This document shows positions 10,311 through 32,169 of a stretch of DNA of 32,169 nt, piece by piece. The position numbers and the translations under genes were made by a program. Numbering within the stretch: position 1 is the stretch's first letter; every line of letters begins with the position of its first letter. The stretch comes from a virus. The stretch lies in the IMG/VR virus record IMGVR_UViG_3300045988_177309, positions 1 to 32,169 of that record; one strand, written 5' to 3'. A model generated the notes under the pieces. It did not search any database and was not told the DNA's origin. It was given only the letters and a program-made list of their open reading frames with translations.

Positions 10311-10362
10311 TTTCAACTCAAATTATTACAAATTCGTAACAATTTATGTAATAAATTAAAAA

Positions 10363-10773: not shown

Positions 10774-10775
10774 GC

Positions 10776-12398: not shown

Positions 12399-12414
12399 AC
12401 CATAAAAATTTGTC

Positions 12415-12450
12415 AGTGTTCACAATTTTGTCACAATTCAAAAAATGTAT
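12415..12450. promoter_or_regulatory. operator-like repeats GTTCACAATTTTGTCACAATT immediately upstream of minus gene start 12398
   Basis: Variant of the GTNACAATT repeat seen at 10222-10305. Confidence 0.4.
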
Positions 12451-12593
12451 TATTTGTGACGCGATAATACACTATGTATAATTATACAATTGTTAAAAAT
12501 ACTACGATAATTTTTTAACAATAGGGGGTTTCGGGATTGATAATTTTTTATTACAAATGATAAAAAATTATCAGAAATTCCGCCAAAAAATGC

Positions 12594-12634
12594 TTGACAC
12601 AAAGCTCGGCCTGTGCCAACCGCGCACAGGCCGC
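12594..12634 (+). repeat. copy 1 of repeated element: TTGACA-CAAAGCTC-[hairpin ggcctgtgc-caaccgc-gcacaggcc]-GCC
   Basis: Paralogous to 14399-14438. Same flank and loop, different stem with compensatory changes. Preceded by the shared block ggattgataat. Confidence 0.6.
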
Positions 12635-12722
12635 CAACAAAGTCAAGGCCATATATAAAAAATAATAGGCTGTAAATTACTTACAGCTTTTTAATTCAAT
12701 TTTTGTTTTTATTTTTCAAGCT

Positions 12723-12865
12723 TTAGTTTTCTTCATCATTTTTTTTATGTTTCTTTTTTCTGCGATACTTTTTTTTATCCAATTCAATTCTTGTATAAGG
12801 TTTAACGTCTCCCCAATTTTTTCTTATTTTTCGCAGGGTTTCAAGTTGCTGTTCTTTTGATGCCA
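12723..12865 (-). CDS. small highly basic protein (47 aa, K/R-rich C-terminus)
   Basis: Internal ATG 12865 with RBS AAAGTGAGGTG (MASKEQQLETLRK...KKYRRKKKHKKNDEEN). Track ORF 12723..12941 includes the 5'UTR. Confidence 0.4.
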
Positions 12866-13000
12866 TATAGTAACACCTCACTTTTAACTGAAAAGGCGGG
12901 GGGATGTTCCCCCGCTTGTTATGTCTTAGCCCTAACCTCATACCTGTTTTTCATTTTCTTCAATCTCCTTTGATTTTTTGTTCCTCTCTTGGAACAATTA

Positions 13001-13029
13001 TAGTATACTATACTTAGGCTAAAATGTCA
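13001..13029 (-). promoter_or_regulatory. consensus promoter TTGACA-17-TATACT (minus strand) with leader ATAATTGTTCCAAGAG
   Basis: Plus-strand agtata 13001-06 and tgtcaa 13024-29. Confidence 0.65.
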
Positions 13030-13038
13030 ATACCTTTT

Positions 13039-13509
13039 TCAAAGGTTTTTTGTTTCTGAAACAAAATACTTTGCGCCAACTGCATCAAGTATTGTTTTGG
13101 CTTTCGCGCTCTGCTCTTGAGTTGCGCAAAAACAATTGATAATAAAATATTTATTTATGTCTATCCAATTAAAAGGGATATCTGCCAATTCCAATTGATC
13201 GCGCAAAGCATATAATATTTTTTCATCATGTTTTATGGTGCTTTCAATCTTCCAGAGCATTTCTTTGCGCGCTTTTTCTTCCAATAGCTTAACAAGATAA
13301 ACCCCTATAAAATTTGCCGCCGCGGTGACAGCCATTTTTCCCTCAATGCTAAGCGCGGCATCGCTTGTTAAAAGAATAACATAAGTATAAAAGCCATATG
13401 TTAAAGCATTTATTAAGGCCGCCGCAAGCTTAGAACCTTTAATTGTAATAAGGCTTTTTACTGTTGAAAGAATTACATTGATTATTGTACAAATAGAAAA
13501 CAATATCAT
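13039..13509 (-). CDS. membrane protein (156 aa, 3-4 predicted TM helices in N-terminal half)
   Basis: ORF track. Hydrophobic segments. TGA stop. Confidence 0.55.
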   Translation of the reverse strand: MILFSICTIINVILSTVKSLITIKGSKLAAALINALTYGFYTYVILLTSDAALSIEGKMAVTAAANFIGVYLVKLLEEKARKEMLWKIESTIKHDEKILYALRDQLELADIPFNWIDINKYFIINCFCATQEQSAKAKTILDAVGAKYFVSETKNL

Positions 13510-16000: not shown

Positions 16001-17075
16001 TTTGATAAAATTAGATTATTCTTTAGAAACTCCAGAAGAAAGAGTACAATTAGTAGAGCAAATTTTGGCTGAATAGCCTAATCCTCCTCAAAAATACATA
16101 GAAATTTTAACTGATTATCTAGTTATGTGCATGGAGCGTCAAGAACGCCGTGAGCGCAAAATATTAACTGAGAATCGTTTGGCGACAGTTAATAAACGTG
16201 AAACCTCTTTTGAAGGTCTTGTATCACAACTAGAAAGTGGCGAAGATGGAATCTATAATCTCATTCATGAAAATAAGAACCAAATATTTAAACCAAAAGT
16301 AAGAATAACAAAAAAAGACATTGAAGAAATACCCGAACTCCAACAAATAAGAGATTCCATTGAATTTTGGGAAAAAAAGGCAAAAACCGCACAAGGTCGC
16401 GAAGCATTTATTATACGAAAAACAATTATTGAATTGCGCAAAGATCAATACCTTGTGAAAGACTCTTTCCGATAGCCCATTCAAGCAAGTTCAACCGCGC
16501 ATTCACGTGGTATCTATAAACTTACTTATGATGATAAAACTTGCAATTTTGATGAAGAAGGATATCCAATTCCTTCTGGTCTCTCTCTTTTGGATCCAAA
16601 CATTTGTTCGACAATCTTATGTTTATATTCTAAATTAAAACAAGATGGTTATAGTGAATTCATTGGTGATTTATACTATCTTATGGAAGATTTTGATAAA
16701 ATTTCTATTATTGCGCTTGCGCCTTATCCTATTTATCAAAAATTAGTATTATATAAAATAGATGGCCGACAAAACGCTGAAATACAAAATTTATTACAAA
16801 CAGAATTTGGTATTACTCATAGTCTTGAATACCTTTCGAGTCTTTGGCGTAATAAAATTCCTAAATTAATAGCCAGTGCCGCAGAAGATCAATATCTTGA
16901 ATGGTATTACCTTAATGCTGAAAAAGGCAAATATAAAAGATGTAGCTGCTGTGGACAAATTAAATTAGCTCATAATAAATATTTTTCTAAAAATAAAACT
17001 AGCAAAGATGGTTATTACAGCATTTGTAAAAAATGTCGCAATGCTAAAAGTAAAAAAAGAAAAAGGAAGAAATAA
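16001..17075 (+). CDS. hypothetical protein with C-terminal Zn-ribbon (CSCCGQ...CKKC) and basic tail; 1 in-frame TAG
   Basis: Track ORFs 16125..16475 and 16590..17075 share a frame through the TAG at 16473. The frame stays open upstream to a TTG at about 16001, 11 nt after AAAGGAGG. The start is uncertain and may be 16125. Confidence 0.5.
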
Positions 17076-17078
17076 TTT

Positions 17079-18266
17079 ATGAGCGAGTTACATTATTGTA
17101 AAAAATGTAATCGAACCATGAATGGGGAACAATTTTATTCTTCTAACAATTTAGAAAAATACCCTGATAATGGTAAATTTGATATTTGCAAGAAATGTAT
17201 GACTATGCATGTAGATAATTGGGATCCAAACACTTACCTTTGGATCCTAGAAGAAGCTGACGTGCCTTATGTTCCCGATGAATGGAATAAATTGATGGCA
17301 AAGTATGCCAATAATCCAGAAAAATTAACTGGTATGACTATTCTAGGGCGTTATCTCTCTAAAATGAAACTTAAACAATTTAGAGATTATCGATGGAAAG
17401 ATACCGCTTTCTTGCAAGAATTGACACAAAGTAAAATTGAGCAAACAATGAAACGCTCCGGTTATGATGCTTAGCAAATTGCCGAAGCTATTAATAAGGT
17501 TACTTTTACTTTTGATGAACATTATGAATAGCCTCCAATTCCTGCTTCGAATGAATGTAGTGAATCTGAAGATTATTTTGACCAATAGAATGATATTTCT
17601 ATTCCAGAAGAAACGTTTGATTTAACCGACGAAGAAAAATTAATGTTGCGTCTTAAATGGGGAAAAACTTATAAACCAGAAGAATGGATTAAACTTGAAC
17701 AATTATATAATGAATTTCTTTAGTCTTATGATATTCAAAGCGCAGGACATATTGATACTCTTAAATTGATATGCAAAACCTCTCTTAAAGCCAATTAGTT
17801 AATCGATATTGGAGATGTAGAAGGTTTTCAAAAAATGAGCCGGGTGTATGATAATTTAATGAAGAGCGGTAAGTTTACTGCTGCTCAAAACAAAGCCGAA
17901 TCTGGGGAATATGTAAATTCAATTTCTGAACTTGTTACTTTATGTGAATAGCAAGGTTTTATTCCTCGTTATTATGTATCTACACCGCAAGATAAAGTTG
18001 ATGAAACTTTATAGGATACTAAAAATTATGTGCGGACTTTAGTTACCGAAGAAATGAACTTAGGTAATTTAATTGAATCTTCAATACGCACAATGAATTA
18101 TGAAGAAAATAAAGAAGAAGATGAAGATATCGAAGATGAAATAATGGAAGATGTAGTTCCTGAAATTACTGATGAAGACTTCATGGAGCAAGAGGAATTT
18201 CTTGAGTCTGAACAAGAGAAAGATGCGCGATTGACTGAAGAATTGGCCTTGGGCAAAAATAATTAA
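17079..18266 (+). CDS. hypothetical protein (N-terminal CxxC...CxxC, acidic C-terminus); 7 in-frame TAGs
   Basis: Track ORFs 17079..17474 and 18030..18266 share a frame. The frame stays open through TAGs at about 17473, 17528, 17585, 17720, 17798, 17949 and 18010, with no TAA or TGA. TAA at 18264-66. Confidence 0.6.
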
Positions 18267-18937
18267 TGGCATTACAAGAACTTTTAAATTTATAGTCTCG
18301 ATACAATAAATTAGGGCTTTCTGAAGAGCGCGTAACTGCAATTCTTCCAGTAGTGCGTGAATATGTAGCATTCTGGCGTGAATACCCAGATATGTTTATT
18401 GATTTCCTTTTGGAAGCGGGGAACCCTTAGAATTTTCATCTTTATTTTTATCAACGAGTATTTTTACGTGCGGCAATGCGGCATAAATATGTGTATGCAG
18501 TTTACCCGCGCGCCTATTCAAAATCGTTTCTTGCAATTATGATTTTAATGATACGTTGCATTCTCTATCCCAAGTGTAAACTTTTCGTTACTTCGGGTGG
18601 TAAAGAATAGGCGGCTGGTATCATAAAGGAAAAAGTACAAGAAATATGTAATCTTATTCCAGCAATGGATAAAGAAATAGATTATCGACCTGGTCAAACT
18701 AGATTTATTAAAGACCAAACTACAATAGTATTTAAAAATGGCTCTTATTTTGATAATATTGCAGCGCGTGAAACCTCTCGTGGTAAACGTCGTCATGGTG
18801 GAGTCATAGAAGAATGTGTTGGAGTCGATGGCGATATACTGTCCCAAGTTATTATTCCCACAATGAACATTTCACGTATGTGTATGGATGGAACAACATA
18901 GCCTGAAGAAACGCTCAATAAGTCCCAAATTTATGTT
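18266..18937 (+). CDS. terL: terminase large subunit, exon 1 (ATPase domain)
   Basis: ATG overlaps the upstream TAA (TAATG). ...AVYPRAYSKSFLAIM... (deviant Walker A) ...ETLNKSQIYV coupling motif. In-frame TAGs. The frame then degenerates and hits TAA at 19007, so the exon must end near 18937. Confidence 0.65.
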
Positions 18938-19530
18938 AATTTTTTGGTCATTTTACGTTACTTAAATGTATTAATTTTAAAGAGAAAAAAGCCCATTCTA
19001 CCATTATAAAATCTAAAAGAAAGCTTACGCAAGAACAAGTTTTTATGATTTATGTAAATAATGAATAGAATATTATTCCAAAAACATATCTTTGTAATAT
19101 GTTTAATATCACTAGTAATACAATTTATACTATTTTAAATCAAAAATCTTATCAAGATTATTGGCAAGATTATCAAAAATTAACGAATGATCAAAAAGAA
19201 CAATTAGCATCATTGTTGCGAAAGCAACAACAGCAAACCCCTTGAATTGCTGGGAAGCCCTAAAAAATAGGGTAATCAGCAGCCAAGCCTTGAATAAAGG
19301 AAGGTTCAACGACTATCTCAATATGAGAGTAGAGGCAAGCGTCTCGAAGTGGGGGGCCCTTAGCAGGTAAAGCTGAAGGTGAAGATATAGTCTTTTCTAT
19401 ATAGTAATATATAGCAGTTCATAAGAGAACGTATTTAATTTAGCGAATTAAATAGAAAAATAAAGAACAACTGCGGGATACAAAAACACATATGCTTATG
19501 ATAAACTTATTTAGTTGTTAGTTTGGTAGA
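18938..19530 (+). mobile_element. group I (IA-like) self-splicing intron interrupting terL; boundaries approximate
   Basis: P GAATTGCTGGGAAGC 19245-59. P5 hairpin ccct-aaaaaat-aggg. Q AATCAGCAGCC 19274-84. P6 ccttgaataaaagg. R GTTCAACGACTA 19304-15. P8 tctca-ata-tgaga. S AAGATATAGTC 19382-92 (GACUA:UAGUC P7). P9 ctatata-gtaa-tatatag. All in canonical order. Confidence 0.7.
19045..19245 (+). CDS. intron-internal ORF, HTH-like (possible degenerate homing-endonuclease DNA-binding module); contains 1 in-frame TAG
   Basis: Frame differs from both exons. MIYVNNE(Q)NIIPKTYLCNMFNITSNTIYTILNQKSY... resembles a NUMOD/HTH motif. TGA stop at 19243-45. Confidence 0.25.
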
Positions 19531-20525
19531 TCGTAAGACCAGAACGTTCAATTATTCTCGGAGGTACTTACCGCATCCCAGTTCTTATGAAGCTTCTGGA
19601 TAAAAGCTTTGTTCAAGACTTGCGTATGGATGGTACCTTTAATGAAAGTGCATTTTAGCGAGAATATGAGTCGAAATGGTCTGGCACAGTAGAGGATGCA
19701 TTCTTTAATCCAGAAGTTTTTGAACGTAATCGCATTCTTAATCAGCCAGAATATGAACTTTCTGGACGTGCATCAAAACAATCTTATTATGTGCTTTCTG
19801 TGGATGTTGGTCGCAAACAATGCGACACTGTTGTTTGCGTTTTTAATGTCATTCCATAGTAGCAAGGTACATCAATAAAAAAATTGGTTAACATATTTGT
19901 ATTAACTGATGAACATTTTGAAGATCAAGCAATAAGATTAAAGCAATTATATTATAAATTTAAAGCACGTCGTATTGTAATTGATGCGAATGGATTAGGT
20001 ATTGGACTTGTAGATTATATGATAAAAACTCAAGTTAACCCTGAAACAAATGAAACTTATTATGATTTTGGTGTTTATAATGATGAAGATAATTATTACA
20101 AAAAATATAGAACCATTTTCACAGAACAAGATGCAATGTATTTAATTAAAGCTAATGCGCCATTAAATACTGATGCTCATGCGAATGCACAATCTTAGCT
20201 ATCTTCTGGAAAAGTAAAATTTTTAATTGATGTTCAAACAGCCAAAGCGAAATTGCTTAATACAAAAGTTGGCCAAAATATGAGTCCTGAACAAAGGACA
20301 GATTATTTAAAACCATTTAATTACACTTCCATATTAAAAGAAGAAATGTTGAATCTTCGTGAAGAAAATGAAGGTATTAATATTAATTTAAAACAAATAA
20401 ATCGCGGAATACGAAAAGACAAATTTTCTGCGTTTGAATATGGGTTATATTATATTAAACATGAAGAAGATGACAAGAAAAAACGTAAAAGATTTAATGC
20501 AAAAGATTGGGCTTTTTTTAATTAA
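19530..20525 (+). CDS. terL: terminase large subunit, exon 2 (linker + RNaseH-like nuclease domain)
   Basis: ...FQREYESKWSGTVEDAFFNP... then ...YYVLSVDVGRKQCDTVVCVFN... and IVIDANGLGIGLVDYM. In-frame TAGs at about 19656, 19857-62 (double) and 20196. Track ORFs 19884.. and 20253..20525 share the frame. TAA at 20523-25. Confidence 0.7.
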
Positions 20526-20634
20526 AGGAGAAATAAAATATGAAAAGTTTTGCAGTAATAGCCAATAAAGCTATTAGAAGTTTTGATACGACTATATTAA
20601 ATTATACTGATATTGCTATGAGGTATTATCAACA

Positions 20635-20994
20635 GTGCGAGCTTCACGAGCGGAAATTAAAATTGAAGAAATCCTGCGTGACGCAGGTTTAAATTTTAAA
20701 ATGGAGTATATTTTTCCTGATTTAAAAAGTCCCAATGGACGTCCTTTGCGTTTTGATTTTGTTGTTTTTGATGATGATGGACGTATTGATTTTATTATTG
20801 AATATTAGGGTAAACAACATTACCAACCAAGTAGTAAATTTGGTGGTAAACGAGGTTTTTATCAACAACAATATAATGATAATCAAAAGCGTCGATTTTG
20901 CGCTTTGCATGATTTTAATTTAATAGAGATTCCGTATAATGAAGAAAATCTCATTTCTTATGATTATATTATGAATAAGGCCTACGGCTGGTGA
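20635..20994 (+). CDS. small endonuclease-like protein (restriction-endonuclease-fold/Vsr-like motif ...RFDFVVFDDDGRIDFIIEY-Q-GKQHY...LIEIPY); 1 in-frame TAG
   Basis: Frame opens after the TGA at 20608-10. Candidate starts are GTG 20635 or ATG 20701. TAG sits inside the conserved E-Y-x-G-x-Q-H block. TGA stop overlaps the portal RBS GAAGGAGGTG. Confidence 0.5.
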
Positions 20995-21008
20995 AGGAGG
21001 TGCGTAAT

Positions 21009-22616
21009 TTGGATAAATCCCGAACCTAGCAAATTCATGATAAAGGTTTTGCAATGGTTGATGGATACGCCTATTATCGCACAGACGCACCTAATGAATA
21101 TAAGAAAATTCGTATTGGAGTAAAATCTGTTGAAGACGCTGTGCTTCAACTAGGTTCTTATTGCCCTAATCCAAAAGATAAAGGTAATCATGGTCCTGCC
21201 ATTAATAAAGGCATGATTATTAAAGCTTTAATGGAACATGATGTTAAAGAATAGCGGAGAATTTCTAATCTTTTTTATGAAATAAATGGTATTTATCAAA
21301 AAGTATGTAATTATTTTGCTTATCTTTATCGTTATGATTGGTATGTAGATCCAAAAGTTTATGAAGATGCCAATGTTGAGAAAGTCTTAAAAAACTTTGC
21401 TAGTGTATTAGATTTTCTTGATAAATCTTATATTAAAAAAGTGTGTGGCGATATAGCTTTAGAAGTAGTTAAAAGTGGCGCCTATTATGGATATATTGTT
21501 AATATAAACAAAAGCTTAGTATTACAATAGCTGCCGACTGATTACTGCCGCTCCCGTTATAATGTTGGTTCAACTCCTGCAATAGAATTTGATATGAGAT
21601 ATTTTGATACGTTTAGAGATACTAATTATCGTATGCGTATCTTAAAGTTATTTCCTGATGAATTCTCAAAAGGATATTTACTTTATAAATAGGGTAAATT
21701 ACAACCTGACTTTGCTGGAGATAATTAGGGAAGTTGGTATTTACTTGAACCAGAAAATACTATAAAATTTAATTTATTGCATCATGATTTACCAATGTTT
21801 GTGAATGCAATTCCTGCGATTCTTGATTTGGATGCCGCCCAAGACTTAGACCGCAAGAAACAAATGCAGCAATTATTAAAAATTGTTGTACAAAAATTGC
21901 CACGAGACAAAAATGGTGATTTAATATTTGATGTTGAAGAAGCTAGAGATATACACAACAATGCAGTAGAAATGTTGCGTCGTGCTGTTGGAGTTGATGT
22001 TTTAACAACATTTACAGATGTTGATTCTATTGATATGTCTGATAAAAATACTTCAACCACTAAAGATGATTTAGAAAAAGTTGAACGCACTGTTTATAAT
22101 GCATTAGGTATTTCGCGCAATTTGTTTAATACGGATGGCAATTTATCTTTGGAAAAATCAATTCTTAATGATGAATCTTCTATGCGTAAATTATTGCTTC
22201 AATTTGAACAATTCTTTGATCGTATTATAAGTCAAAAATATAAAAATAGTAAATGTATTTTTAATTTTTGTATGTTAGAAACGACTCAATATAATTATAA
22301 AGAATTAGCAAAATTATATAAAGAACAATCTTAGATTGGTTTCTCAAAGATGTTACCTTAGATTGCTCTTGGACATTCTTAGAGTTTCATTTTGAATTCT
22401 GCCCACTTTGAGAATGATATATTAAAGTTATATGAAATTATGATTCCTCCGCTTATGAGTTCTACTATGAGTAGTGATTTAATTTTGGGTAACAAAGAGC
22501 AAAGTAATTAGACAAAAAATCAAACAAATTAGGATAGTAAAGAAATTGGTCGTCCAGAAAAATCTGATGACCAAAAGAGCGAAAAAACTATCTAGAATAA
22601 AGAATCTATGAGTTAA
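21009..22616 (+). CDS. portal protein (putative, about 535 aa); at least 10 in-frame TAGs
   Basis: Track ORFs 21054..21254 and 21777..22334 share a frame that stays open from TTG 21009 (5 nt after GGAGGTG) to TAA 22614-16. Synteny: terL, nuclease, this gene, scaffold. Size is typical of portals. Confidence 0.55.
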
Positions 22617-22628: not shown

Positions 22629-24167
22629 ATGCATAAGAGTATAGGCATTGAACAGTCCATCGAATTCATTAACGTGACTCCGCTCAATCCTTTAATTTCT
22701 AAATGTCAAATAAAAGTTTGTTATGTTCAAGATGAACCTAACCGCAATAAGAGTATAATTACTAAAGATGTTGCGCGAAAGCTCGCTAATTCATTGCCGG
22801 GTAGTCCCATTGTTGGTTATTATAATGAGGCCAGTGGTGATTTTGAAGAACATAATAAAATTATAGAAATTTCTAATGGTCAATTAACTTTTAAAGAAAA
22901 TACAAGGCCTTATGGCTTTGTTGATTTAGGTGCTAAAGTTTGGTTTTAGAAATTCCTTGATGATGATGTAATAGAACGTGAATATTTAGTAACAGAAGGA
23001 TATTTATGGACTGGCCAGTATCCTGAATGTCAACGTATTATTGATATCGGCAATAACCATTCAATGGAACTTGACAATACAATTTTAAAAGGACACTGGA
23101 CAAAAGATGATAAAGGAAAACCACAGTTTTTTATTATCAATGAAGCAATAATTTAGAATCTTTGTATTTTAGGCGAAGATGTAGAACCTTGCTTTGAAGG
23201 GGCTAGTATTACAGCTCCTATTCAATTCTCATTCGAGGATGGGTTTAAAGAGTAGCTCTTCTCAATGATGAATGAGTTAAAGAATATTTTGAATGAAGGA
23301 GGAGCGAAAGTATTGAATACTTATGCCGTTGATATTGGCGATAGTCTTTGGTCAGCCGTATGGGATTATGTTCATAAGACTTATAAAGATCCTGCTGATG
23401 AATGGTCTGCTTTGTATAACATCGATAGCATTTGCGAAGAAAATGGCCAAAAATTTGCAGTTCTGAGAAGTGCTGATGCCAAATACTATCGTTTAAATTT
23501 CTCTCTTTCTGAAACAGAGGGCTTCCAAGCTTCTGGCGCTTTAATTGAAGTAACTAAAAATTATACTCCTATTAATCAGTTTGCAGAAGCCGATGTTGCA
23601 GCTTATATGGAAGAATATAAGAAAAAGAATACTAAAGAGCCTTCTGAGGATGAAGAGAAGCCCATTGAGGATGAGAAAAAGTCAGAAGAAGAAGATAATT
23701 CTGATAATGAATCTCAATCTGATGATGAGGAAGATAAGAAGAAGAAGAAAACTTCTTATTCTATAGAAGAGTATAATACTGTTGTTGAACAGTTAAATAC
23801 TTTACAAGCTCAGTATAATGCCTTGCAGGAAACTAATAATGAGTTAACTGCGCAAGTTGAGTCTTTGACTCAGTTTAAGGTTGCGGCCGAGCGCAAGGAT
23901 AAACAGGCTATGATAAATAGCTTTTATATGCTGTCCGATGATGATAAGAAAGATGTTGTTGATCATATTGATTCTTATTCTTTGGATGATATTGAAGCAA
24001 AACTTTCTATAATATGTTTCCGTAATAAGGTAAGTTTTGACCTTGATGAGGAAAAGAAAACAGATGAGAATGGGCCTATTACTTATAATTTAGACCATGA
24101 TGAAGTTGATAATACTCCTGCTTGGTTAAAGGCTGCATTTGCTGTTGCAAAATCTAGAGAAGAATAA
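22629..24167 (+). CDS. scaffolding-like protein (globular N-domain, acidic E/D/K low-complexity linker, coiled-coil C-terminus); 3 in-frame TAGs
   Basis: Track ORFs 22629..22949 and 23265..24167 share a frame through TAGs at about 22947, 23154 and 23253. RBS GGAGGAATATTAATG. Confidence 0.5.
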
Positions 24168-24188: not shown

Positions 24189-24953
24189 ATGCTGGGTGAG
24201 TTTTTAAAGAAACACATTACTAGCCAGGCAGATTCCGCCAAGGGCGGCTATGTCGATTATGGTTATGGCCAAGTAGAACCTAACCATCTTTCAGCTTAGA
24301 GGACTGGACAGATGTATGGTCAGCTGCCTGCTAATAAAGATATTAAGATTTTAGAAAATGGTCAGTTTGTAAAATATGATTATGCTGCCGCCAATGGCGG
24401 TGAGGTAAATTTCGTTGGTAAGGGCGAATGGATGCTTGTTTATAATGAGATTAAGCTTTATCGTGAACATCAGGTTGACGCTGAGTTCGCTATGCTGAAA
24501 GATAATTATGAAGCTCGTGTTTATAGTCCTTATGATTGGGAAAAGCCTGAAGAGGATAAGCAGACTCGTTACTATAATGGTGTAGATAATAACGGCGATT
24601 CTAGCATCGAGCTTGGTGGTAAGACTTATAATTATGATGATGTAACTGCTGGCCCTGATTATTATGAAATTCATTATAATGAAGATCCCTTCCACATTCT
24701 TGGTAAGCATTATGAGCGCAAGATGCCCGAAGGTACTAAGATGGTTCCTCGCGTATTTAAGACTAATGTGGGTGATATCTTTACCACTAACATGATTGCC
24801 GAAACTACTCTTGCTCTTGGCGATGAGCTTTCTCCTCGTGCAACTGATGGTATTCTCAGCAAGTCTGGCGATGGCTCTATGAAATGGCAAGTAGTGCGTC
24901 TGTATACTATGCCCGATGGCCAAAAGGGCGTTAAATTAATGCGCATAGCGTAA
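24189..24953 (+). CDS. hypothetical head-associated protein (254 aa); 1 in-frame TAG
   Basis: ATG 24189 after AGGAGGATAAACA. Same frame as track ORF 24312..24953 through the TAG at about 24297. Confidence 0.5.
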
Positions 24954-24970: not shown

Positions 24971-26080
24971 ATGGCTTTAGATCGTAATAATCTTGTTGCA
25001 TTAATGAAGACTGTAGCTAAGGCTAAGCCTGCTTCTCCTATTGCTTATAGCTGGGATGGCAAGAATTTAGACTATGATACACTTAATGAAACACTCCGTA
25101 TGGAGATGAATGAACTTGCAGGTTCTTATTCTCTCTATCGTGAAAATAAAAATCTGATTTTCTCCATTATTGAAGAGACTCTTGATGATGTTCTCCCCAA
25201 GAAGGTTGAAGAGCAGTATAATCAGTTCGCTGAAGTTAAGACTTTTAAGCAGGGTGATAAGCCCATTTTCCGCAGGAAGCTCAATACTCGTCAGCGTGCT
25301 AAGCAGTTTGTAACTCGTGTTGGCCATGCTAGCATGTATGAAGTTTTTAAACTTGGTGCGGCTGAAGAGGCTTTTGAAGTGCGTACTAGCGCGATTGGCG
25401 GCGCTGCTCAGATTGGTTTTGAAGAGTTCCTTGATGGTCGTGTTGATTTCGCTGAAGTTACTGCTATCATTATGGAAGGTATGGATGAACTCATTTATAA
25501 GGAGATTGGTGCTGCTCTGAAGGCTTCTATCAATCAGCTTCCTCCTGCAAACCGTGTTGCGGCCGCTGGTTTTGATGAAGCTTCTTTTGATCGCCTTCTG
25601 ACTGTTGCTTCTGCTTATGGCGAACCTACTATCTATTGTACTTATGAATTTGCTGTCAATATGATTCCTCAGGAGGCTTGGCGTTATACTGAGTCTATGA
25701 AGGATGAACTTTGGCGCACCGGTCGTCTGGCTAGCTATAAGGGCAAGAAGGTCATTATTCTTGAACAGGGTTTTGAGGATGGTACCAATGAAAAGAAGGT
25801 TATTGATCCTGGTTATGCTTGGATTATTCCTACTGGTGCTGATGGTAAACCTGTGAAGGTTGCTTTTGAAGGCAATACTATTGTTGATGAGTATAATAAC
25901 TATGACCGCTCTCGTGAAATTCAGGTTTATAAGAAGGTTGGCGTAGTATGCATGATGGCCAATAATATTTGCGCTTATGTTGATACTGCCCTTCTGGGTC
26001 AAATGGATACATGGCATCTTGATGGTGCTTCCAATGTTGCTTGGCAGTCTAATGTTGTTATTGGTAACGACAATCCGTAA
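24971..26080 (+). CDS. major capsid protein (putative; 369 aa), no in-frame TAG
   Basis: Intact track ORF with RBS AAAGGAGAAAAATATAATG. Position after the scaffold-like gene. GC3-rich, highly biased codon usage. Confidence 0.5.
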   Translation: MALDRNNLVALMKTVAKAKPASPIAYSWDGKNLDYDTLNETLRMEMNELAGSYSLYRENKNLIFSIIEETLDDVLPKKVEEQYNQFAEVKTFKQGDKPIFRRKLNTRQRAKQFVTRVGHASMYEVFKLGAAEEAFEVRTSAIGGAAQIGFEEFLDGRVDFAEVTAIIMEGMDELIYKEIGAALKASINQLPPANRVAAAGFDEASFDRLLTVASAYGEPTIYCTYEFAVNMIPQEAWRYTESMKDELWRTGRLASYKGKKVIILEQGFEDGTNEKKVIDPGYAWIIPTGADGKPVKVAFEGNTIVDEYNNYDRSREIQVYKKVGVVCMMANNICAYVDTALLGQMDTWHLDGASNVAWQSNVVIGNDNP

Positions 26081-26162
26081 TTTTTAATATAAGGGGAGAA
26101 AAAAGGATACTTTCGTATCCCTTTTCTCCCATTTTTTGCTATGAGAAAAAGGAGATAATAAA

Positions 26163-26759
26163 ATGGTTGGTAATAAAAATTTTAATGTAAAAAATCGTAG
26201 TGCTAGTGTAGTAGTTTATAAAATTCCAGAAGAAAATATTCGTAGAGAATTTGCGCCCGGTGAAAGTAAGAAGATTTCTTATGCAGAATTAGAAAAGCTT
26301 ACTTATCAGCCTGGCGGTCGTGAATTAATGGCAAATTTTTTGCAAATTGATAGTGATGAAGCAATCAATAGCTTAAATATTTATGCGACTCCTGAATATT
26401 GGATGTCAGAAAAGAATATTATAGATTTGATTAAAACTGGCCCTCTTGATCAGTGGCTCGATGCCCTCGATTATGCTCCTGTTGGCGCAATGGATTTAAT
26501 TAAGAAATATTCTGTGTCTTTGCCTTTGACTGATACTCGTAAGATAGAGGCTTTGCAGAAAAAGACTGGCTTTAATGTTACTGCTGCTATTCAACATGAT
26601 AAAGAATCTAAGGAACCTGACGAAGTATTTACAAAGACTGAAAAGAAGGAAAATACTGAAACCGCTCATACAGCACCTACTGGACGTCGTACTACTGTTG
26701 ATTATAAGAAGAGCAACGAAGAAGCTCCTACTACTCCAGTTTATAAAGTAGTAAAGTAA
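26163..26759 (+). CDS. hypothetical structural protein (198 aa), no in-frame TAG
   Basis: Intact track ORF. RBS AAAAGGAGATAATAAAATG. Confidence 0.5.
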   Translation: MVGNKNFNVKNRSASVVVYKIPEENIRREFAPGESKKISYAELEKLTYQPGGRELMANFLQIDSDEAINSLNIYATPEYWMSEKNIIDLIKTGPLDQWLDALDYAPVGAMDLIKKYSVSLPLTDTRKIEALQKKTGFNVTAAIQHDKESKEPDEVFTKTEKKENTETAHTAPTGRRTTVDYKKSNEEAPTTPVYKVVK

Positions 26760-26786
26760 TAAATAAATAGGAGGCGAGTTTACACT

Positions 26787-27374
26787 GTGGATGGAATAAC
26801 TGAATTTTCCAAAGTATATAATCGCTTTCTTGGTAAAATTACTGATGATATGTATATTGAATTGACTCCAGAAGATACATTAAAAGATTTGCAGAATCTT
26901 TTAATTGAATCATTGCCAGGGTTTGAGTTTCCTAGGCATGATATTTCTTCCTATGTCATAAAGACTGAAACAATTCCAGAAGATATGATAACTTCTGATG
27001 ATTTTGTTGTAGGTATTTTATGGGGTAAGATACCTTCTGGGCCAAATGATGTTCCTGATGTAATTATTGATAAATCTTATTTTTTAGAATCTTTAACAGA
27101 AGAAGAAATTAATATTATAGCCATTTTAATGATGTGCGCTTGGGTAAATAGATAGGTAGCATCTATTGAAAATACTAGAATGAAATATTCAGGTACGGAT
27201 TTTAAATTTACTTCCCAAGCTAATCATTTATCAAAGATGTTAGCGCTGTTATCAGAAACATAGCGCCAATCAATTCATATGCAAAGACTTTATGGTCGTC
27301 GCAAAAAAAATGCGCGAGGTGCTTATGAATCTAATTGGTCTATATTACGAGAAAAGAGCGCATTAGATAGATAA
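26787..27374 (+). CDS. head-tail adaptor/connector-like protein; 2 in-frame TAGs
   Basis: Track ORF 26787..27155 (GTG start after TAGGAGG) continues in frame through TAGs at about 27153 and 27261 to TAA 27372-74. Confidence 0.4.
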
Positions 27375-27676
27375 TGATGACTAAATATGGTTTTACTGTT
27401 GTCGAAGATGTTATTAATAAAGATTTATTACGTTTAACTAATTAGATTTGGAAATTAATTCCTATGCGCGAACATGAGGAAGATTGGTTAAAACAATTAA
27501 ATACGATAATTGTAGAAATCTCTGGCTTAAATGAAATATTTGCGCCAGAGCTTTCTTTTACTATCTTATTAAGTAAATTAGAAGGTTTAAAAATTGAAGA
27601 ACATTTAGATTTTTATACTTATCGAAAAACTGTTTTTGAAGCTATAAATTTATTATAGGAGTTAAAACATGCATAA
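27374..27676 (+). CDS. hypothetical small structural protein; 2 in-frame TAGs
   Basis: ATG overlaps the upstream TAA (TAATG). Same frame as track ORF 27464..27658. Confidence 0.45.
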
Positions 27677-28697
27677 TGCACAAGTAAATTCATTGATGCG
27701 CGGCCGCCTTGGCTTATATTCTCAATAGCCTGGACAAGATGCCGGTGTTGAAACTCGTGACCAATAGTTTATATAGCGCGGAGGATATCATCAGCAAGAA
27801 AGAATGATTAAAGACAAGCGCCGCAGTTTGGATAAAGCCACTCTTTATTCTTACTAGGCTGCTGATGTGCGGGATATTAACGCAAAAATATTAAATACAT
27901 ATCGTGCGTTAATTAATCCTAATAAATTAAAACAAGATTATGATGATAAGATTGTTTCTGTTGGATTTGAAGCCAGGTTTTAGCCAGGTACTGTTTTTGA
28001 ATGGGTTGGCACTCATACTTATTGGTTAATTTATTTACAAGATTTAACTGAGCTGGCGTATTTTCGTGGTGATATTCGTAAGTGTTCTTATGAAATTGCT
28101 TGGAAAGATGATGATGGTGAACATAAAACTCATGCGGCAATTCGTGGCCCAGTAGAGACAAAAATTAATTTTATTCAAAAGCATGGAATTAGTGTCGATG
28201 AGCCTAATTATTCTTTGAATATATTAATGCCTAAAAATGAAGAAACTTTGAAATATTTTACCAGATATTCTAAATTTTATTTGCATAATGATCCGGTGCA
28301 AGAAAATAAAATTTGTTGGCGAGTTGAAGCTGTAGATTGGATTAGTATGCCGGGCGTTTTAGAAATAAATGCAGTAGAATATTATAGTAACAAAGTTGAA
28401 GATGATATAGAAAATGGTATTGTGGGTGGGCTAGTAGTTGAAGAAAAAAATCCCAATACTGAAGAAGTAGAGGATGCTATTACTGGTGAAACATTTATTA
28501 AGCCTAAGAAGAGATATAGATATCAATTTACTGGTTCTATGATTTCTGATTGGAAAATAAAAACTGATTTGCCATTACAATGCTGGGAAATTGATGAGCA
28601 TTGTATTGAATTAATGTGGCTAAAACCTGTTAGTGGATAGTTTACATTAAGTTATGGTGATTTTGAGAAAGTAATAGTGGTTGAGTCCCTATTTTAA
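27669..28697 (+). CDS. hypothetical structural protein (about 342 aa); 6 in-frame TAGs
   Basis: ATG 27669. Frame shared with track ORF 28215..28640. Open to TAA 28695-97. Confidence 0.5.
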
Positions 28698-28721
28698 TGA
28701 GATAAAGGAGAAAAAAGTGTT

Positions 28722-29330
28722 ATGAAAGTTGTAAGCTATATTGAGCCAAAGTCTTCTTTTTTATCATTAGAGAAAGATTTGGCTATTATTGTAGATAAAA
28801 TTTTGGCTGATACTCGATTAAAAAAATTGTTATATTATCCCTCAAAAGATGCTTTGACTAAGCCGGCTTTAACTGAGGATTAGAGTATTGCATTATTTGG
28901 TAAGCAAATAAAAATAGTGCCAAAGCTTTATATTGATTCTGAGGTTTTTGCTTATTTAATTATTTCTTTTGATAACTTTTTAACAAATATGACAAATCCG
29001 CAATTTAGAGATAATGTATTAGAGGTAGATGTTATTTGTCATTTTGATCAATGGCAATTAACAGATTTTAAATTGCGGCCCTATAAAATTGCAGCGGAAA
29101 TTGATTCTATGTTAAATAATCAAAGATTGACTGGAATTGGATTAACTGAATTTTTGGGTTGCAATCAAATAGTACTTAATGATGAATATGCAGGATTATG
29201 TTTAATGTATCGTGTTGTACATGGTGAAGAAGATAAAAAGAATATGTTAACGCCGCAAGATGAGAAAGTATTCTTAAACGATTATTTTAGTATGGATACT
29301 GTTGGATCTGATGATGAAGATGGAGATTAA
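28722..29330 (+). CDS. hypothetical protein (about 202 aa); 1 in-frame TAG
   Basis: RBS AAAGGAGAAAAAAGTGTTATG. Frame shared with track ORF 28917..29330. Confidence 0.5.
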
Positions 29331-29332
29331 TT

Positions 29333-30058
29333 ATGGATTTACGGCTAGCCTTAATGTCTGGTATAGATATTGCGGTGCCTGAATGCCCTTTAATTATTCA
29401 CTAGCCGAAAATTAGGGAGATAGCTTATTTAGGTGAAACGCCTTTTTTTACTGGTGTTCAAACTCTTTGTTTAGATAAGCGCATGTTTGCTGAAAATCAA
29501 GAAGAATTAGCTATGGTTAATAATTTTTAGATTGTCATGACACTTTTAAATAGTCCGGAAGGACAAGATAAAAAAATACATGTGAAACAATTATTAAATA
29601 TGATATGTCCGAGTTATAAAATTAGCTTTACTCCTCGGTCAATTTTTTTTAATAAAGAAGATACAAATATCATATTAGATGAGGGTAATTTTGATTCCTT
29701 TCAAGAAATTTTACGTCAAATTTTTTGTGTTAATTCCGGGGCGATGGGTGAAACTGCTTTCAATCCCGCAGATGCTAAAGCAAGAGAAATTGCAGAAAAG
29801 CTCATGCGAGGGCGGCAACGAGTTGCAGCGGAGAAGGGAGAGGGTGCGGGCAGCATCTTTGCCCAATACGCATCCATCCTAACAGTAGGGCTTAACTCAA
29901 TGTCTTTACATGATGTTTTAGATTTAACTATGTTTTAGATGTATGATTTAATTGAAAGACTCTCTCTGTATACTAATTGGGACCTTGACGTTCGAACTAG
30001 ATTAGCGGGAGGTAAGCCGGATCAACAACCCGATAATTGGATGAAAAATATTCATTAA
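29333..30058 (+). CDS. hypothetical protein (about 241 aa); 3 in-frame TAGs
   Basis: ATG 29333. Frame shared with track ORF 29537..29938. TAA at 30056-58. Its 3' end contains the RBS of the next gene. Confidence 0.5.
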
Positions 30059-30081
30059 ATATTAAGGAGGAACAAAACACT

Positions 30082-31080
30082 ATGAAGTTTGGTGTCCGCG
30101 AGATTTGTGACGTCGTGTTAAAGGCGAAAGCACCTCAAAAAGTGGGTAATAAAATATTCTATAAAAATGAACCTGTTATTTATTTTGATACATTAAAGAC
30201 TTCTAGTATGGAAGGCGCTGCAACCACAGTTTACGCGCAAGGTGGACGAGGCAATACTCGTCTCGTAGCGTGGGAAGGCGAACGCACTGTAACCTTCACC
30301 ATGGAGGATGCTCTGATTTCCCCTGCGGGATTCATGATTCTTTCTGGTGCCGGTCTTATTGAAGCTGGTAAGGGCGCTCCTATTTATGTTCATACAACTG
30401 AGCAAACTGACCAGGTTATAGTAGGTGCCGATAATGTTACTATTTACTTGAAAGAAAAGCCCTATTTTGCTGATAATAATGAGGATATGGTTTATGTTAT
30501 GCTTATGGATGGCGATGAAGTTGCCACTGAGCCTTATATTCCTGCTAAGCCCGAAGGTTACAGCAATAAGGAAGCTGATAATACTTATGTGAAAGTTACT
30601 GAAGAAGTTGAAGGTATAACCTATGCTGGTTATAAGATTACTCTGCCCATTACTCGTACTGCTGAGGGTGCTGAGCGTGATGATCTCACTCCTTTCAAGG
30701 CTGGTTGCGTTGTATTAGTAGACTATTACGTAGCTAAGGAAAGTGGCGCGCAGCAGATTGAAATTACTGCCGATAAATTTGGCGGTAACTACTACCTTGA
30801 AGCTTCTACTCTGTTCCGTGATCGCAATGGTGTAGATATGCCTGCGGAATTTATTATTCCTAACTGCAAGATTCAGTCTAATTTTACTTTCACAATGGCG
30901 TCTTCTGGCGATCCTTCTACTTTCACCTTTACCATGGATGCATTCCCTGATTATACTCGTTTCGACAAGACTAAGAAAGTCCTCGCCGCAATTCAGATTA
31001 TTGAAACTGCGGGTGCTTCTGATATCGAACGTCTTAAGACTGATCATATCAAGGCTCATGAGGAGTATTTCATAGATTAA
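30082..31080 (+). CDS. major tail (tube/sheath-like) protein, putative (332 aa), no in-frame TAG
   Basis: ATG 30082 preceded by TAAGGAGG. The track's extension to 30037 has no RBS. Followed by a small ORF and a strong terminator. Confidence 0.45.
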   Translation: MKFGVREICDVVLKAKAPQKVGNKIFYKNEPVIYFDTLKTSSMEGAATTVYAQGGRGNTRLVAWEGERTVTFTMEDALISPAGFMILSGAGLIEAGKGAPIYVHTTEQTDQVIVGADNVTIYLKEKPYFADNNEDMVYVMLMDGDEVATEPYIPAKPEGYSNKEADNTYVKVTEEVEGITYAGYKITLPITRTAEGAERDDLTPFKAGCVVLVDYYVAKESGAQQIEITADKFGGNYYLEASTLFRDRNGVDMPAEFIIPNCKIQSNFTFTMASSGDPSTFTFTMDAFPDYTRFDKTKKVLAAIQIIETAGASDIERLKTDHIKAHEEYFID

Positions 31081-31248: not shown

Positions 31249-31249
31249 A

Positions 31250-31286
31250 ATGGGGGAAGAGAAATCTTCCCCCATTATTTTTTTAT
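31250..31286 (+). terminator. strong intrinsic terminator (ggggaaga-gaaat-cttcccc + T10)
   Basis: Read from the sequence. Confidence 0.75.
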
Positions 31287-31297: not shown

Positions 31298-32169
31298 ATG
31301 GACGTGGGAATAGGTTCAACATTTGCGAGAAATATAACTACCTTAAAAGGGTGGCCTTAGCCTTTTTGGGGTAGATATGAAGAATTAAATAATGTAGTGA
31401 CTCCTAGTATTTCAGCCATTTAGGCTTATCAATTACAAAAAATTAAATAGTTTGAAGAGATTTCGGCCTCAAGAATGGAGAAATATGCTAGAATAAATAA
31501 ATTATTTTCTTCTGGAAATGTTAATAAATTATAGTCTGAACATGCTGAAAATGAAAATAATACTATAGATTAGGCTATAACAAATATAATAAAAGCAATA
31601 AATGGAACTTATCAAGCTAGGGAAAGAATAGACAAAAACCAATATGAATATAATTATTAGAAGTTGTAGAATAAGCTCGAAAATTTAAAAGATGCTATTA
31701 ACTCAGTGAAAGAAATATTAGAATCTGGAAAATAGTCATAGACAATAAATGAATATTTTTTAGACCAAGTGAATAAGGCTATTAAGAACTGTGGAGTGGA
31801 AGGCTCAAATCCATCGCAATGGTTTGCACAGATAAATCAATTTAAAGGTGATATTGTGGAAGAAATAGGTTTAAAATGGTTAAATAGTTTTGGGGTTTCA
31901 AATATAAAAACTTTAAATGTTGGCTCATTAAGCTATCAAGGCTCTTCCAATAAAGGACGTCATAAAGGTTAGTTAATATAGGATTTAATGATTTTATAGG
32001 TAGATGATTTTGATTTAGACACGATACCAATTGAATATAAATTTAACAAAGAGAAAAAAATAGTCACTTTAAGAGAATTTATTGAAAAAATTGAGACAAT
32101 GACAGGTAAATCTGAAGAGATTTCCATTACAGATGAAACATATGATATTTTAGAAAGTTTATCTATTAT
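31298..32169 (+). CDS. large structural protein, tape-measure-like (helical, Q/K/N-rich); about 14 in-frame TAGs; continues beyond window end
   Basis: ATG 31298 after AAAGGAAG. 290 codons open to the window end with no TAA or TGA, but TAG about every 20 codons. Confidence 0.4.

What the first reader, a model, noticed from the sequence alone, without database searches (positions are those of the whole stretch)
24971..31080. The three most highly expressed-looking structural genes completely avoid TAG although their neighbours are full of it
The capsid-like gene (24971-26080, 369 codons), the 26163-26759 gene (198 codons) and the major tail-like gene (30082-31080, 332 codons) have zero in-frame TAGs. 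They also use visibly GC3-richer, more biased codons. Neighbouring genes of similar size carry 2-10 TAGs each, and the tape-measure-like gene has about 1 per 20 codons. This suggests selection to keep the most abundant virion proteins independent of suppressor-tRNA supply. It could also reflect recent acquisition from a standard-code source.
Basis: seen in the sequence. Interest (0 to 1): 0.5.

Follow-up and report, generated by a model that had tools for sequence, protein, structure and literature searches.

The report
Abundant virion genes avoid recoded TAG
In this phage, which reads the stop codon TAG as glutamine, the capsid gene, the tail-tube gene and two neighbouring head genes almost never use TAG; the pattern is real and conserved, and ordinary selection for efficient translation of heavily made proteins explains it best.

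Summary
The window is part of a 162.5-kb SPbeta-like gut phage that reads TAG as Gln. Genes 24971-26080 (YonB-family capsid), 26163-26759 (unknown head-module protein) and 30082-31080 (YomU tail tube) have 0 TAG among 25 Gln codons. Other late genes have 61 TAG among 210 (29%).

In the window alone this is modest evidence: P=0.017 after correcting for post hoc choice. It replicates strongly. In 15 of 15 recoded lineages more than 15% apart, and in published Phass-1, the same genes hold 2-11% TAG per Gln against 21-56% elsewhere. A fourth gene, 24189-24953, behaves the same way, and 22629-24167 is intermediate.

Standard-code relatives show the same optimal-codon bias in these genes (AAG and CAG preferred; ATA, CGA and GGG avoided). 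That bias predicts TAG use gene by gene (rho 0.81-0.87). So TAG behaves like a rare, poorly decoded codon that selection removes from the most translated genes. In the other late genes it sits near what mutation alone predicts.

Recent acquisition from a standard-code source is refuted. The mechanism (limited suppressor tRNA or competition with release factor RF1) is inferred, not shown. The "tape-measure-like" gene is not the tape measure. Conventional explanation, moderate interest.

The parts
24971..26080 (+). Major capsid protein gene (YonB family), 369 codons. 0 TAG among 12 Gln codons (11 CAG, 1 CAA).
   Evidence: counts. (PF27364 YonB on the identical protein). (25% identity to annotated major capsid proteins of Bacillus phages; 42-50% to EF1 and Phass-1). 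(pooled relatives: 11 TAG among 458 Gln codons).
26163..26759 (+). Conserved head-module protein of unknown function, 198 codons. 0 TAG among 5 Gln codons.
   Evidence: (homologues only in this phage group; no match to a solved fold). (pooled 17 TAG among 198, 9%). Alone it is not significant in the window (P=0.18).
30082..31080 (+). Tail tube protein gene (YomU_Tube family), 332 codons. 0 TAG among 8 Gln codons.
   Evidence: (PF27173 YomU_Tube). (about 30% identity to 'tail tube' or 'major tail' proteins of Bacillus phages and structural proteins of Lactococcus 949-group phages). (pooled 14 TAG among 287).
24189..24953 (+). Fourth member of the TAG-poor class, not in the finding. Unknown protein just upstream of the capsid gene. 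1 TAG among 10 Gln codons; strongest codon bias.
   Evidence: (pooled 12 TAG among 430, 3%). (ATA/Ile 0.01 in standard-code relatives). (AAGGAGG ribosome-binding site).
22629..24167 (+). YonD_N-family protein with an acidic, coiled-coil C-terminal half. Intermediate class: 3 TAG among 22 Gln codons, 9 CAG.
   Evidence: 0 TAG among 28 Gln codons in Phass-1.
26787..30058 (+). TAG-rich neighbours between the capsid and tube genes: five genes, including YomW-like 28722-29330 and YomV-like 29333-30058. 15 TAG among 49 Gln codons.
   Evidence: Pooled TAG per Gln 0.33-0.55.
16002..22616 (+). TAG-containing upstream late genes, including the split gene 18266-19009 / 19515-20525 and the 541-aa gene 20991-22616 (11 TAG), which is a portal candidate by position only.
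31298..32169 (+). 5' part of a 432-aa TAG-rich gene (12 TAG in 290 codons).
   Evidence: (432-aa gene; the PF10145 tape measure starts about 2 kb further on).
26105..26120 (+). Weak hairpin plus T-rich tail, starting 25 nt after the capsid gene's stop codon.
   Evidence: Consensus scan only; weak evidence.
31249..31276 (+). 12-bp G+C-rich hairpin followed by a T run, downstream of the tube gene and a 55-codon ORF. Terminator-like.
263..13509 (-). Minus-strand gene block with no in-frame TAG (0 among 85 Gln codons) and no TAG stops, but weak codon bias. This is a second, different class of TAG-free genes.

Best explanation
TAG behaves as a poorly decoded, rare-tRNA-type codon, and translational selection removes it from the most heavily translated virion genes.

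The phage reads TAG as Gln in its late genes (shown). In most late genes TAG has drifted to roughly the level that AT-biased mutation predicts (shown by the counts; the neutral reading is inferred). TAG cannot mutate to TAA without killing the gene, so its only exit is back to CAG.

Four genes were already under strong selection for optimal codons before recoding: the capsid gene, the tube gene and the two genes flanking the capsid gene. Standard-code relatives show this. In these genes new TAG codons are removed.

The inferred reason is that decoding TAG needs a suppressor tRNA that competes with host release factor RF1. Each TAG would then cost time and truncated product. The cost would scale with the number of ribosomes crossing the codon and with the drain that abundant mRNAs put on the suppressor pool.
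For: 1. The depletion is conserved. The three genes have a lower TAG fraction than other late genes in 15 of 15 recoded lineages more than 15% apart (0-19% against 25-50%), and in Phass-1. Pooled TAG per Gln is 0.02, 0.03, 0.05 and 0.09 in the four genes, against 0.23-0.55 in 12 others.

2. The bias came before recoding. In standard-code relatives the same four genes have CAG/(CAA+CAG) of 0.66-0.74, against 0.14-0.54 elsewhere (0.14-0.40 without the intermediate gene 22629-24167). ATA/Ile is 0.00-0.03 against 0.09-0.34.

3. The bias is of the optimal-codon type, not a GC shift. AAG, CAG, TTC, CTT, GCT, GGT and CGT go up. ATA, CGA, CGG, AGG, GGG and NCG go down. TAG falls about 9-fold (0.04 against 0.36), much like ATA (0.02 against 0.24), CGA (0.01 against 0.12) and GGG (0.01 against 0.09).

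4. There is a dose-response across independent genomes. Per-gene rare-codon use in standard-code relatives predicts per-gene TAG per Gln in 14 recoded lineages that exclude the window's own. Spearman rho is 0.87 for ATA (P=1e-5) and 0.81 for a rare-codon set. 22629-24167 is intermediate on both measures.

5. A neutral benchmark separates the two gene classes. In other late genes TAG/CAG is 3.3. That is close to TTG/CTG (5.3) and to T/C at fourfold sites (4.3). In the four genes TAG/CAG is 0.07, against TTG/CTG 0.77 and T/C 4.4. So there is TAG-specific depletion of about 10-fold beyond the general preference for CTG and CAG.

6. TAG is avoided even where CAG is not preferred. L010 has 3 TAG, 17 CAA and 2 CAG in the three genes; L022 has 1, 25 and 5.

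7. The four genes and 22629-24167 have AAGGAGG- or AAGGAGA-type ribosome-binding sites (duplex energy -9.3 to -13.4 kcal/mol). Most neighbours are weaker.

8. Protein conservation does not explain the pattern (rho -0.12, P=0.67).
Against: - There are no expression or virion-abundance data. High expression is inferred from family identity for two genes and from codon bias and ribosome-binding sites for the others. Codon bias is thus partly both proxy and outcome, although it was measured in different genomes.
- No suppressor tRNA was seen in the roughly 52 kb of the 162.5-kb genome that I could read. The decoding agent in this lineage is unverified.
- The neutral benchmark assumes near-equilibrium and comparable C->T rates at first and third codon positions.
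- Rare TAGs in the four genes show no clear bias towards either end. A pure cost-of-truncation model might predict one.
- In crAss-like phages a tail-tube family is reported as TAG-enriched, so the rule is not universal.
Confidence: 0.72

Rival explanations
1. Chance. Three genes with few Gln codons simply happen to lack TAG.
For: The Gln counts are small (12, 5 and 8). 26163-26759 alone gives P=0.18 and the tube gene P=0.064. After correcting for post hoc choice, the window-only P is only 0.017.
Against: The pattern replicates in 14 of 14 other diverged recoded lineages and in Phass-1. Pooled, the three genes have 42 TAG among 943 Gln codons, against thousands at 23-55% elsewhere.
Confidence: 0.01
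2. Recent acquisition of these genes from a standard-code phage, leaving no time to gain TAG.
For: GC and GC3 are higher in the capsid and tube genes. Standard-code and recoded lineages are interleaved in the family, so donors exist.
Against: The same genes are depleted in every recoded lineage, down to 50-60% capsid identity, with conserved gene order. The bias is in specific optimal codons (GCT up and GCG down; ATA nearly absent), not a general GC shift. Standard-code relatives show the same contrast between these genes and their own neighbours. Synonymous sites are saturated between lineages (27% overall nucleotide distance), yet TAG stays low.
Confidence: 0.02
3. Timing. These proteins must start accumulating before the code switch, or independently of it, so they are kept readable in the standard code. 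This is the explanation usually given for early genes and integrases.
For: The minus-strand block is TAG-free (0 among 85 Gln codons, P=2e-13) with weak codon bias. That fits the temporal model and shows that timing-type avoidance exists in this genome. The Borges et al. preprint reports integrase depletion of this kind.
Against: The genes sit inside one tightly packed late operon. Their assembly partners there (the 541-aa portal candidate with 11 TAG, the split gene around the intron) need suppression. Relatives tolerate 1-4 TAG in these genes, which would block translation before the switch. The graded link with codon bias is expected from expression level, not from an on/off timing rule.
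Confidence: 0.13
4. Adaptive rheostat. TAG is positively selected in low-copy virion genes to hold down their output and set virion stoichiometry. The abundant genes are simply left unthrottled.
For: TAG per Gln varies gradually between genes and runs opposite to the proxies for expression. TAG exceeds CAA in 29333-30058 and 27335-27676 orthologues (238 against 164; 84 against 61). The Borges et al. preprint proposes that selection enriches or depletes recoded stops for regulation.
Against: In the TAG-rich genes TAG/CAG (3.3) is no higher than the analogous TTG/CTG (5.3) or fourfold T/C (4.3). Mutation bias alone is therefore enough. The + strand has a positive GC skew, so I would expect extra C->T pressure to explain the few genes where TAG exceeds CAA (my inference).
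Confidence: 0.1
5. Slow protein evolution. Conserved proteins offer fewer tolerated routes to TAG (from GAG, AAG, TAT and others).
For: The capsid protein is among the most conserved (79% mean identity).
Against: There is no correlation between protein identity and TAG fraction (rho -0.12). 26163-26759 is the least conserved (54%) yet TAG-poor. 20635-20994 is the most conserved (80%) yet has 38% TAG. CAG->TAG is synonymous after recoding, and the four genes are rich in CAG.
Confidence: 0.02

Closest known systems
TAG->Gln (code 15) recoded gut phages with a code-neutral early module and a recoded late module (Borges et al. preprint 10.1101/2021.08.26.457843; Yutin et al. PMC7886860; Peters et al. 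PMC9523058)
   Same: TAG is read as Gln. There is a TAG-free early block on the opposite strand and a TAG-containing structural block. Close standard-code relatives exist.
   Different: Those papers stress TAG enrichment in lysis genes and depletion in integrases as regulation. In the text I searched, the Borges preprint never uses the word 'capsid' and reports a crAss-like tail-tube family as TAG-enriched. Here the tail tube and capsid are the depleted genes, and the depletion follows codon-bias strength.
Phassvirus / SPbeta-like group of large siphophages (Babkin et al. 2023, PMC10607447; Enterococcus phage EF1; Bacillus SPbeta gene families YonB, YomU, YonD, YomW, YomV)
   Same: Same gene families and order. 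Capsid protein 50% identical to Phass-1 and 42% to EF1. Phass-1 is TAG-recoded with three tRNA-Sup(CTA) genes and shows the same TAG-free genes.
   Different: This is a different lineage (162.5 kb, 50% capsid identity). The paper lists TerL and the tape measure as recoded but does not discuss why the capsid gene is not.
Translational selection on codon usage in highly expressed genes (classical optimal-codon bias)
   Same: A specific set of preferred codons, rare-codon avoidance, strong ribosome-binding sites, and the same genes biased in relatives whatever their code.
   Different: The avoided codon here is a reassigned stop. Its decoding presumably depends on a phage-supplied suppressor and competes with a release factor. 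It is depleted about 10-fold more than the analogous TTG/CTG pair.
Single-genome remark that a TAG-recoded crAss-like phage has a capsid gene without TAG (bioRxiv 10.64898/2026.08.21.746148)
   Same: The capsid gene is free of recoded TAG, and the authors mention pressure for efficient translation.
   Different: That is one genome in an unrelated order, with no statistics, no relatives and no other genes. Here the pattern is quantified across 15 lineages plus Phass-1 and extended to the tube and head-module genes.
Under-use of reassigned stop codons in highly expressed genes of eukaryotes with variant nuclear codes (ciliates, Blastocrithidia)
   Same: Conceptually the same: reassigned stops are tolerated but disfavoured where translation load is highest.
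   Different: This rests on my own recollection. My literature search did not retrieve the primary statement, so treat it as a lead and not a test. Those organisms changed their own translation system permanently, whereas this phage works in a standard-code host.

Membership tests
Code 15 (TAG->Gln) recoded phage | Reading TAG as sense restores long, tightly packed ORFs in conserved phage genes | tested here: met
   ORF coverage rises from 48% to 74% and a contiguous + strand operon appears at 16002-32169. The gene lengths match gene calls in public assemblies that evidently read through TAG.
Code 15 (TAG->Gln) recoded phage | In-frame TAG aligns with Gln in standard-code homologues | tested here: met
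   Gln 32%, Glu 13% and Lys 11% at TAG columns in 17 standard-code relatives.
Code 15 (TAG->Gln) recoded phage | The phage encodes a suppressor tRNA with anticodon CUA | tested here: inconclusive
   None in the window, in 52 structural-module loci or in the two flanks. Only tRNA-Lys(TTT) and tRNA-Met were found. About 110 kb of the genome could not be read. Relative Phass-1 has three. Two attempts to reach this lineage's tRNA region failed.
Code 15 (TAG->Gln) recoded phage | An early or lysogeny module compatible with both codes | tested here: met
   The minus-strand block 263-13509 has 0 TAG among 85 Gln codons, and its stops are only TAA or TGA.
SPbeta-like / Phassvirus-related siphophages | YonB capsid, YomU tube, YonD, YomW and YomV families in conserved order, with a giant PF10145 tape measure | tested here: met
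   Precomputed Pfam hits on proteins identical to the window's. tblastn hits to Phass-1, EF1, Sundance and Bacillus phages.
Translationally selected (highly expressed) gene class | Codon bias towards a defined optimal set, shared by orthologues in relatives whatever their code | tested here: met
Translationally selected (highly expressed) gene class | Strong translation-initiation signals | tested here: met
   AAGGAGG- or AAGGAGA-type sites 7-10 nt upstream of 22629, 24189, 24971, 26163 and 30082 (duplex energy -9.3 to -13.4 kcal/mol). Most neighbours are -2.8 to -8.1. Window only.
Translationally selected (highly expressed) gene class | Direct evidence of high mRNA, ribosome or protein abundance | not testable with these tools
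   No transcriptome or proteome for this uncultured phage. Abundance is inferred from capsid and tube identity.
Horizontally acquired standard-code gene cassette | Patchy distribution or atypical composition relative to relatives' orthologues | tested here: not met
   Orthologues are present, in the same order and equally biased in all lineages, recoded or standard.

The most novel reading that the evidence does not exclude
TAG density may be an evolved dial for virion stoichiometry. Each late gene's share of TAG among its Gln codons would be tuned to how little of the protein is needed, using leaky suppression as a translational attenuator. The abundant capsid, tube and head proteins would be kept TAG-free. 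That would make stop-codon recoding a quantitative dosage mechanism as well as a timing switch. My data show the graded inverse relation. They do not need positive selection for TAG, because the TAG-rich genes sit at about the mutational expectation.
Probability: 0.1. Interest if true: 0.7.

Novelty: new member of a known kind. Interest (0 to 1): 0.4.

Why it matters
The prevailing view treats recoded stop codons in phages as a regulatory device: a timing switch for late and lysis genes. This family offers a clean natural comparison, because recoded and standard-code lineages with the same gene order are interleaved.

The comparison suggests a simpler baseline. Once TAG can be read, it spreads in late genes about as far as mutation bias predicts. 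Selection removes it where translation load is highest, just as it removes ATA, CGA or GGG.

This gives a null model against which claims of regulatory TAG enrichment can be tested. It also implies that TAG decoding stays measurably costly in infected cells.

There are practical consequences:
- Capsid and tail-tube genes of such phages look intact under the standard code, so using them as markers can hide recoding.
- Gene callers that assign codes by block may mislabel these genes.

Tried and rejected
- **Pfam-A local copy.** No family for any of 20 window proteins beyond two sub-threshold coiled-coil matches (ATPTG10, DivIC) on 22629-24167. Family names came only from precomputed hits to newer families.
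- **PDB sequence searches.** Nothing for the capsid, tube and 26163 proteins, or for a tube profile.
- **AlphaFold model of the tube protein.** Poor (mean pLDDT 53). The conserved N- and C-terminal parts were unmodelled because the alignment was shallow, so I did not use it for fold search.
- **Model of the 26163 protein.** Acceptable (mean pLDDT 77), but it has no significant PDB match and matches only uncharacterised phage proteins in BFVD. Its function stays unknown.
- **Suppressor tRNA.** Not found in the window, in 52 related structural loci or in the 10-kb flanks. A pattern built from the Phass-1 suppressor anticodon and T arms hit 118 viral contigs; none of the 80 listed came from this family. 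A scan for neighbours of the Phass-1 NrdD gene returned only Phassvirus contigs.
- **Position of rare TAGs.** No clear bias towards either end within the four genes.
- **Base after TAG.** It is A more often (0.36) and T less often (0.20) than after CAA or CAG (chi2 P=8e-11). From my own knowledge of E. coli suppression, that is the direction expected for contexts favouring readthrough. But CAG shares the excess of C, so part of the effect is general to NAG codons. I treat it as suggestive only.
- **Rejected ideas.** Chance, recent horizontal transfer, and protein conservation (see the rival explanations).

Full report
**What the window is.** Under the standard code the window breaks into short ORFs. 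Reading TAG as sense raises coverage by ORFs of at least 100 aa from 48% to 74%. It also gives a contiguous + strand operon from 16002 to the end of the window. At alignment columns where recoded relatives have TAG, 17 standard-code relatives have Gln in 32% of cells, then Glu (13%) and Lys (11%). So TAG = Gln.

The capsid gene is 100% identical to part of a 162.5-kb ENA contig. Precomputed Pfam hits on the identical proteins name SPbeta families:
- YonD_N: 22629-24167
- YonB: 24971-26080
- YomW: 28722-29330
- YomV: 29333-30058
- YomU_Tube: 30082-31080
- a roughly 3100-aa PF10145 tape measure beyond the window

tblastn links the capsid and tube proteins to Phass-1, to Enterococcus EF1-like phages, and to Bacillus phages where they are annotated as major capsid protein and as tail tube or major tail protein. 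Phass-1 belongs to a published TAG-recoded group (PMC10607447).

**Checking the observation.** The three genes have 369, 198 and 332 codons and no in-frame TAG. Together they hold 25 Gln codons (19 CAG, 6 CAA). The other late genes hold 61 TAG among 210 Gln codons. The naive probability of zero is 1.9e-4. The genes were chosen after the fact, and a permutation that allows for this gives P=0.017. Heterogeneity among genes gives P=0.0036. The window alone is suggestive.

Three details need correcting:
- GC3 is clearly higher only in the capsid and tube genes.
- 24189-24953 belongs to the same class.
- The 'tape-measure-like' gene at 31298 is a 432-aa protein, not the tape measure.

**Replication.** A scan of IMG/VR with the capsid protein returned 52 loci at 60-98% identity, each with up to 10 kb of flank. 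Orthologues of 16 late genes were identified and aligned. Thirty-five loci are recoded and 17 use the standard code, and the two kinds are interleaved in a distance tree.

Pooled over the recoded loci, TAG per Gln is:
- 0.02 in the capsid gene
- 0.03 in 24189-24953
- 0.05 in the tube gene
- 0.09 in 26163-26759
- 0.23-0.55 in the 12 other genes

I took one representative for each of 15 recoded lineages more than 15% apart in nucleotide sequence. The three genes of the finding have the lower TAG fraction in all 15, and 13 of these comparisons are individually significant at P<0.05. Fourteen of the lineages are independent of the window that generated the hypothesis. Phass-1, at 50% capsid identity, has 0 TAG among 67 Gln codons across the five corresponding genes. 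Its neighbours have 7/22, 6/13 and 25/73. The avoidance is not absolute: several relatives carry 1-4 TAG in these genes.

**What kind of bias it is.** The four genes differ from their neighbours in a specific way. AAG, CAG, TTC, CTT, GCT, GGT and CGT are preferred. ATA, CGA, CGG, AGG, GGG and NCG are nearly absent. The same holds in standard-code relatives. This is optimal-codon bias, not foreign composition.

TAG falls about 9-fold, much like ATA, CGA and GGG. Per-gene rare-codon use measured only in standard-code relatives predicts per-gene TAG per Gln in 14 recoded lineages that exclude the window's own (Spearman 0.87 for ATA, 0.81 for a rare-codon set). 22629-24167 is intermediate on both measures. 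Protein conservation predicts nothing (rho -0.12). The four genes and 22629-24167 also carry AAGGAGG- or AAGGAGA-type ribosome-binding sites. Terminator-like hairpins follow the capsid and tube genes (weak evidence).

**Neutral benchmark.** After recoding, CAG<->TAG is a synonymous first-position C<->T change, and TAG->TAA is lethal.
- In the ordinary late genes TAG/CAG is 3.3. That is close to the analogous Leu pair TTG/CTG (5.3) and to T/C at fourfold sites (4.3). TAG there is about where mutation bias alone would put it.
- In the four genes TAG/CAG is 0.07, while TTG/CTG is 0.77 and fourfold T/C is 4.4.

So roughly 7-fold of the drop is shared with a general preference for CTG and CAG. A further 10-fold or so is specific to TAG. 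Lineages whose versions of these genes prefer CAA over CAG still avoid TAG (L010, L022). The avoidance is therefore not just a by-product of CAG preference. The equilibrium assumption and the rate equivalence behind this benchmark are inferences.

**Two classes of TAG-free genes.** The minus-strand block 263-13509 has 0 TAG among 85 Gln codons (P=2e-13). Its codon bias is weak (ATA/Ile 0.38, AAG/Lys 0.32). That fits the published timing model, in which genes are read before the code switch. The virion genes of the finding are a different class, marked by strong bias.

**Mechanism.** Shown: TAG = Gln, the conserved gene-specific depletion, its link with a codon bias that pre-dates recoding, and the departure from mutational expectation. 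Inferred: these are the most translated late genes, and TAG is costly because it depends on a suppressor tRNA that competes with RF1.

I could not find the suppressor in the roughly 52 kb of this genome that I could read. Phass-1 encodes three tRNA-Sup(CTA) genes. It also encodes tRNA-Gln(CTG), tRNA-Lys(CTT) and tRNA-Glu(CTC), which read the G-ending codons favoured in these genes.

**Rivals.** Chance and recent transfer from a standard-code source are refuted by the replication and by the same contrast in standard-code relatives. A pure timing explanation fits poorly. The genes lie in one late operon with TAG-rich assembly partners, a few TAGs are tolerated in relatives, and the relation to codon bias is graded. 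A rheostat model, with positive selection for TAG in low-copy genes, is not excluded. It is also not needed.

**Literature.** The Borges et al. preprint tested for TAG enrichment (lysis genes, and a crAss-like tail-tube family) and for integrase depletion. It frames these as regulation and never mentions capsids. Peters et al. and Yutin et al. do not address the pattern. The Phass-1 paper lists TerL and the tape measure as recoded, without comment on the capsid gene. A 2026 preprint notes, for one crAss-like genome, a capsid gene without TAG and mentions translational efficiency.

The phenomenon is therefore a well-supported new instance of a known kind, with a conventional explanation. Its main value is as a null model for claims of regulatory recoding.

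Noticed in passing
window 19192-19414 (+): Group I intron (Rfam RF00028, 92.7 bits, E=8e-23). It lies in the 500-bp gap between ORFs 18266-19009 and 19515-20525. These look like two exons of one gene, terminase-large-like by position only, with no family hit.
   Followed up: partly
window 13510-16000: About 2.5 kb with no long ORF under any stop-codon reading. It is flanked by perfect or near-perfect sigma-70-type promoter matches on both strands (15906-15934 +, 13936 +, 14135 +, 15288 -, 13807 -) and several long hairpins. It is probably the divergent control region between the minus-strand block and the late operon.
   Followed up: no
window 4436-5113 and 5614-6396 (+): Two + strand ORFs with in-frame TAG (4 and 2), embedded in the otherwise TAG-free minus-strand region. 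Recoded genes are therefore not confined to the structural operon.
   Followed up: no
window 25067-26017 (-), 24351-24923 (-), 30715-31059 (-): Long antisense ORFs (316, 190 and 114 aa) inside the capsid gene, 24189-24953 and the tube gene. They are most likely shadow ORFs. Codon bias in these genes avoids TTA, CTA and TCA, whose reverse complements are stop codons.
   Followed up: partly
window 31249-31276 (+) and 26105-26120 (+): Terminator-like hairpins just downstream of the tube gene (after a 55-codon ORF) and of the capsid gene. They could lower read-through into less abundant downstream genes.
   Followed up: no
L001-L052 (IMG/VR relatives): Recoded (35) and standard-code (17) members are interleaved in a distance tree at about 25-30% nucleotide divergence. 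That implies repeated gain or loss of TAG recoding within one gene-order-conserved family.
   Followed up: partly
L046 (IMGVR_UViG_3300013426_000018), capsid orthologue: An outlier with 4 TAG among 14 Gln codons in its capsid gene (the three genes of the finding together: 5 of 26). Avoidance seems relaxed in this lineage.
   Followed up: no
L060 (Phass-1 60001-110000): Besides three tRNA-Sup(CTA) genes, Phass-1 encodes tRNA-Gln(CTG), tRNA-Lys(CTT), tRNA-Glu(CTC) and tRNA-Leu(CAG). These read the G-ending codons enriched in the abundant virion genes.
   Followed up: partly
L054 17152-17619 / L055 8058-8525 (flank beyond the window's left end): tRNA-Lys(TTT) and tRNA-Met(CAT) genes. Nearby lie genes whose products hit the radical-SAM, peptidase M28 and (weakly) YunG-like families, on the same 162.5-kb genome.
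   Followed up: no
L059 12580-13113 (about 1.5 kb beyond the window's right end): A 177-aa YomO-like gene with 0 TAG among 9 Gln codons but no optimal-codon bias (ATA/Ile 0.41). The count is too small to interpret.
   Followed up: no
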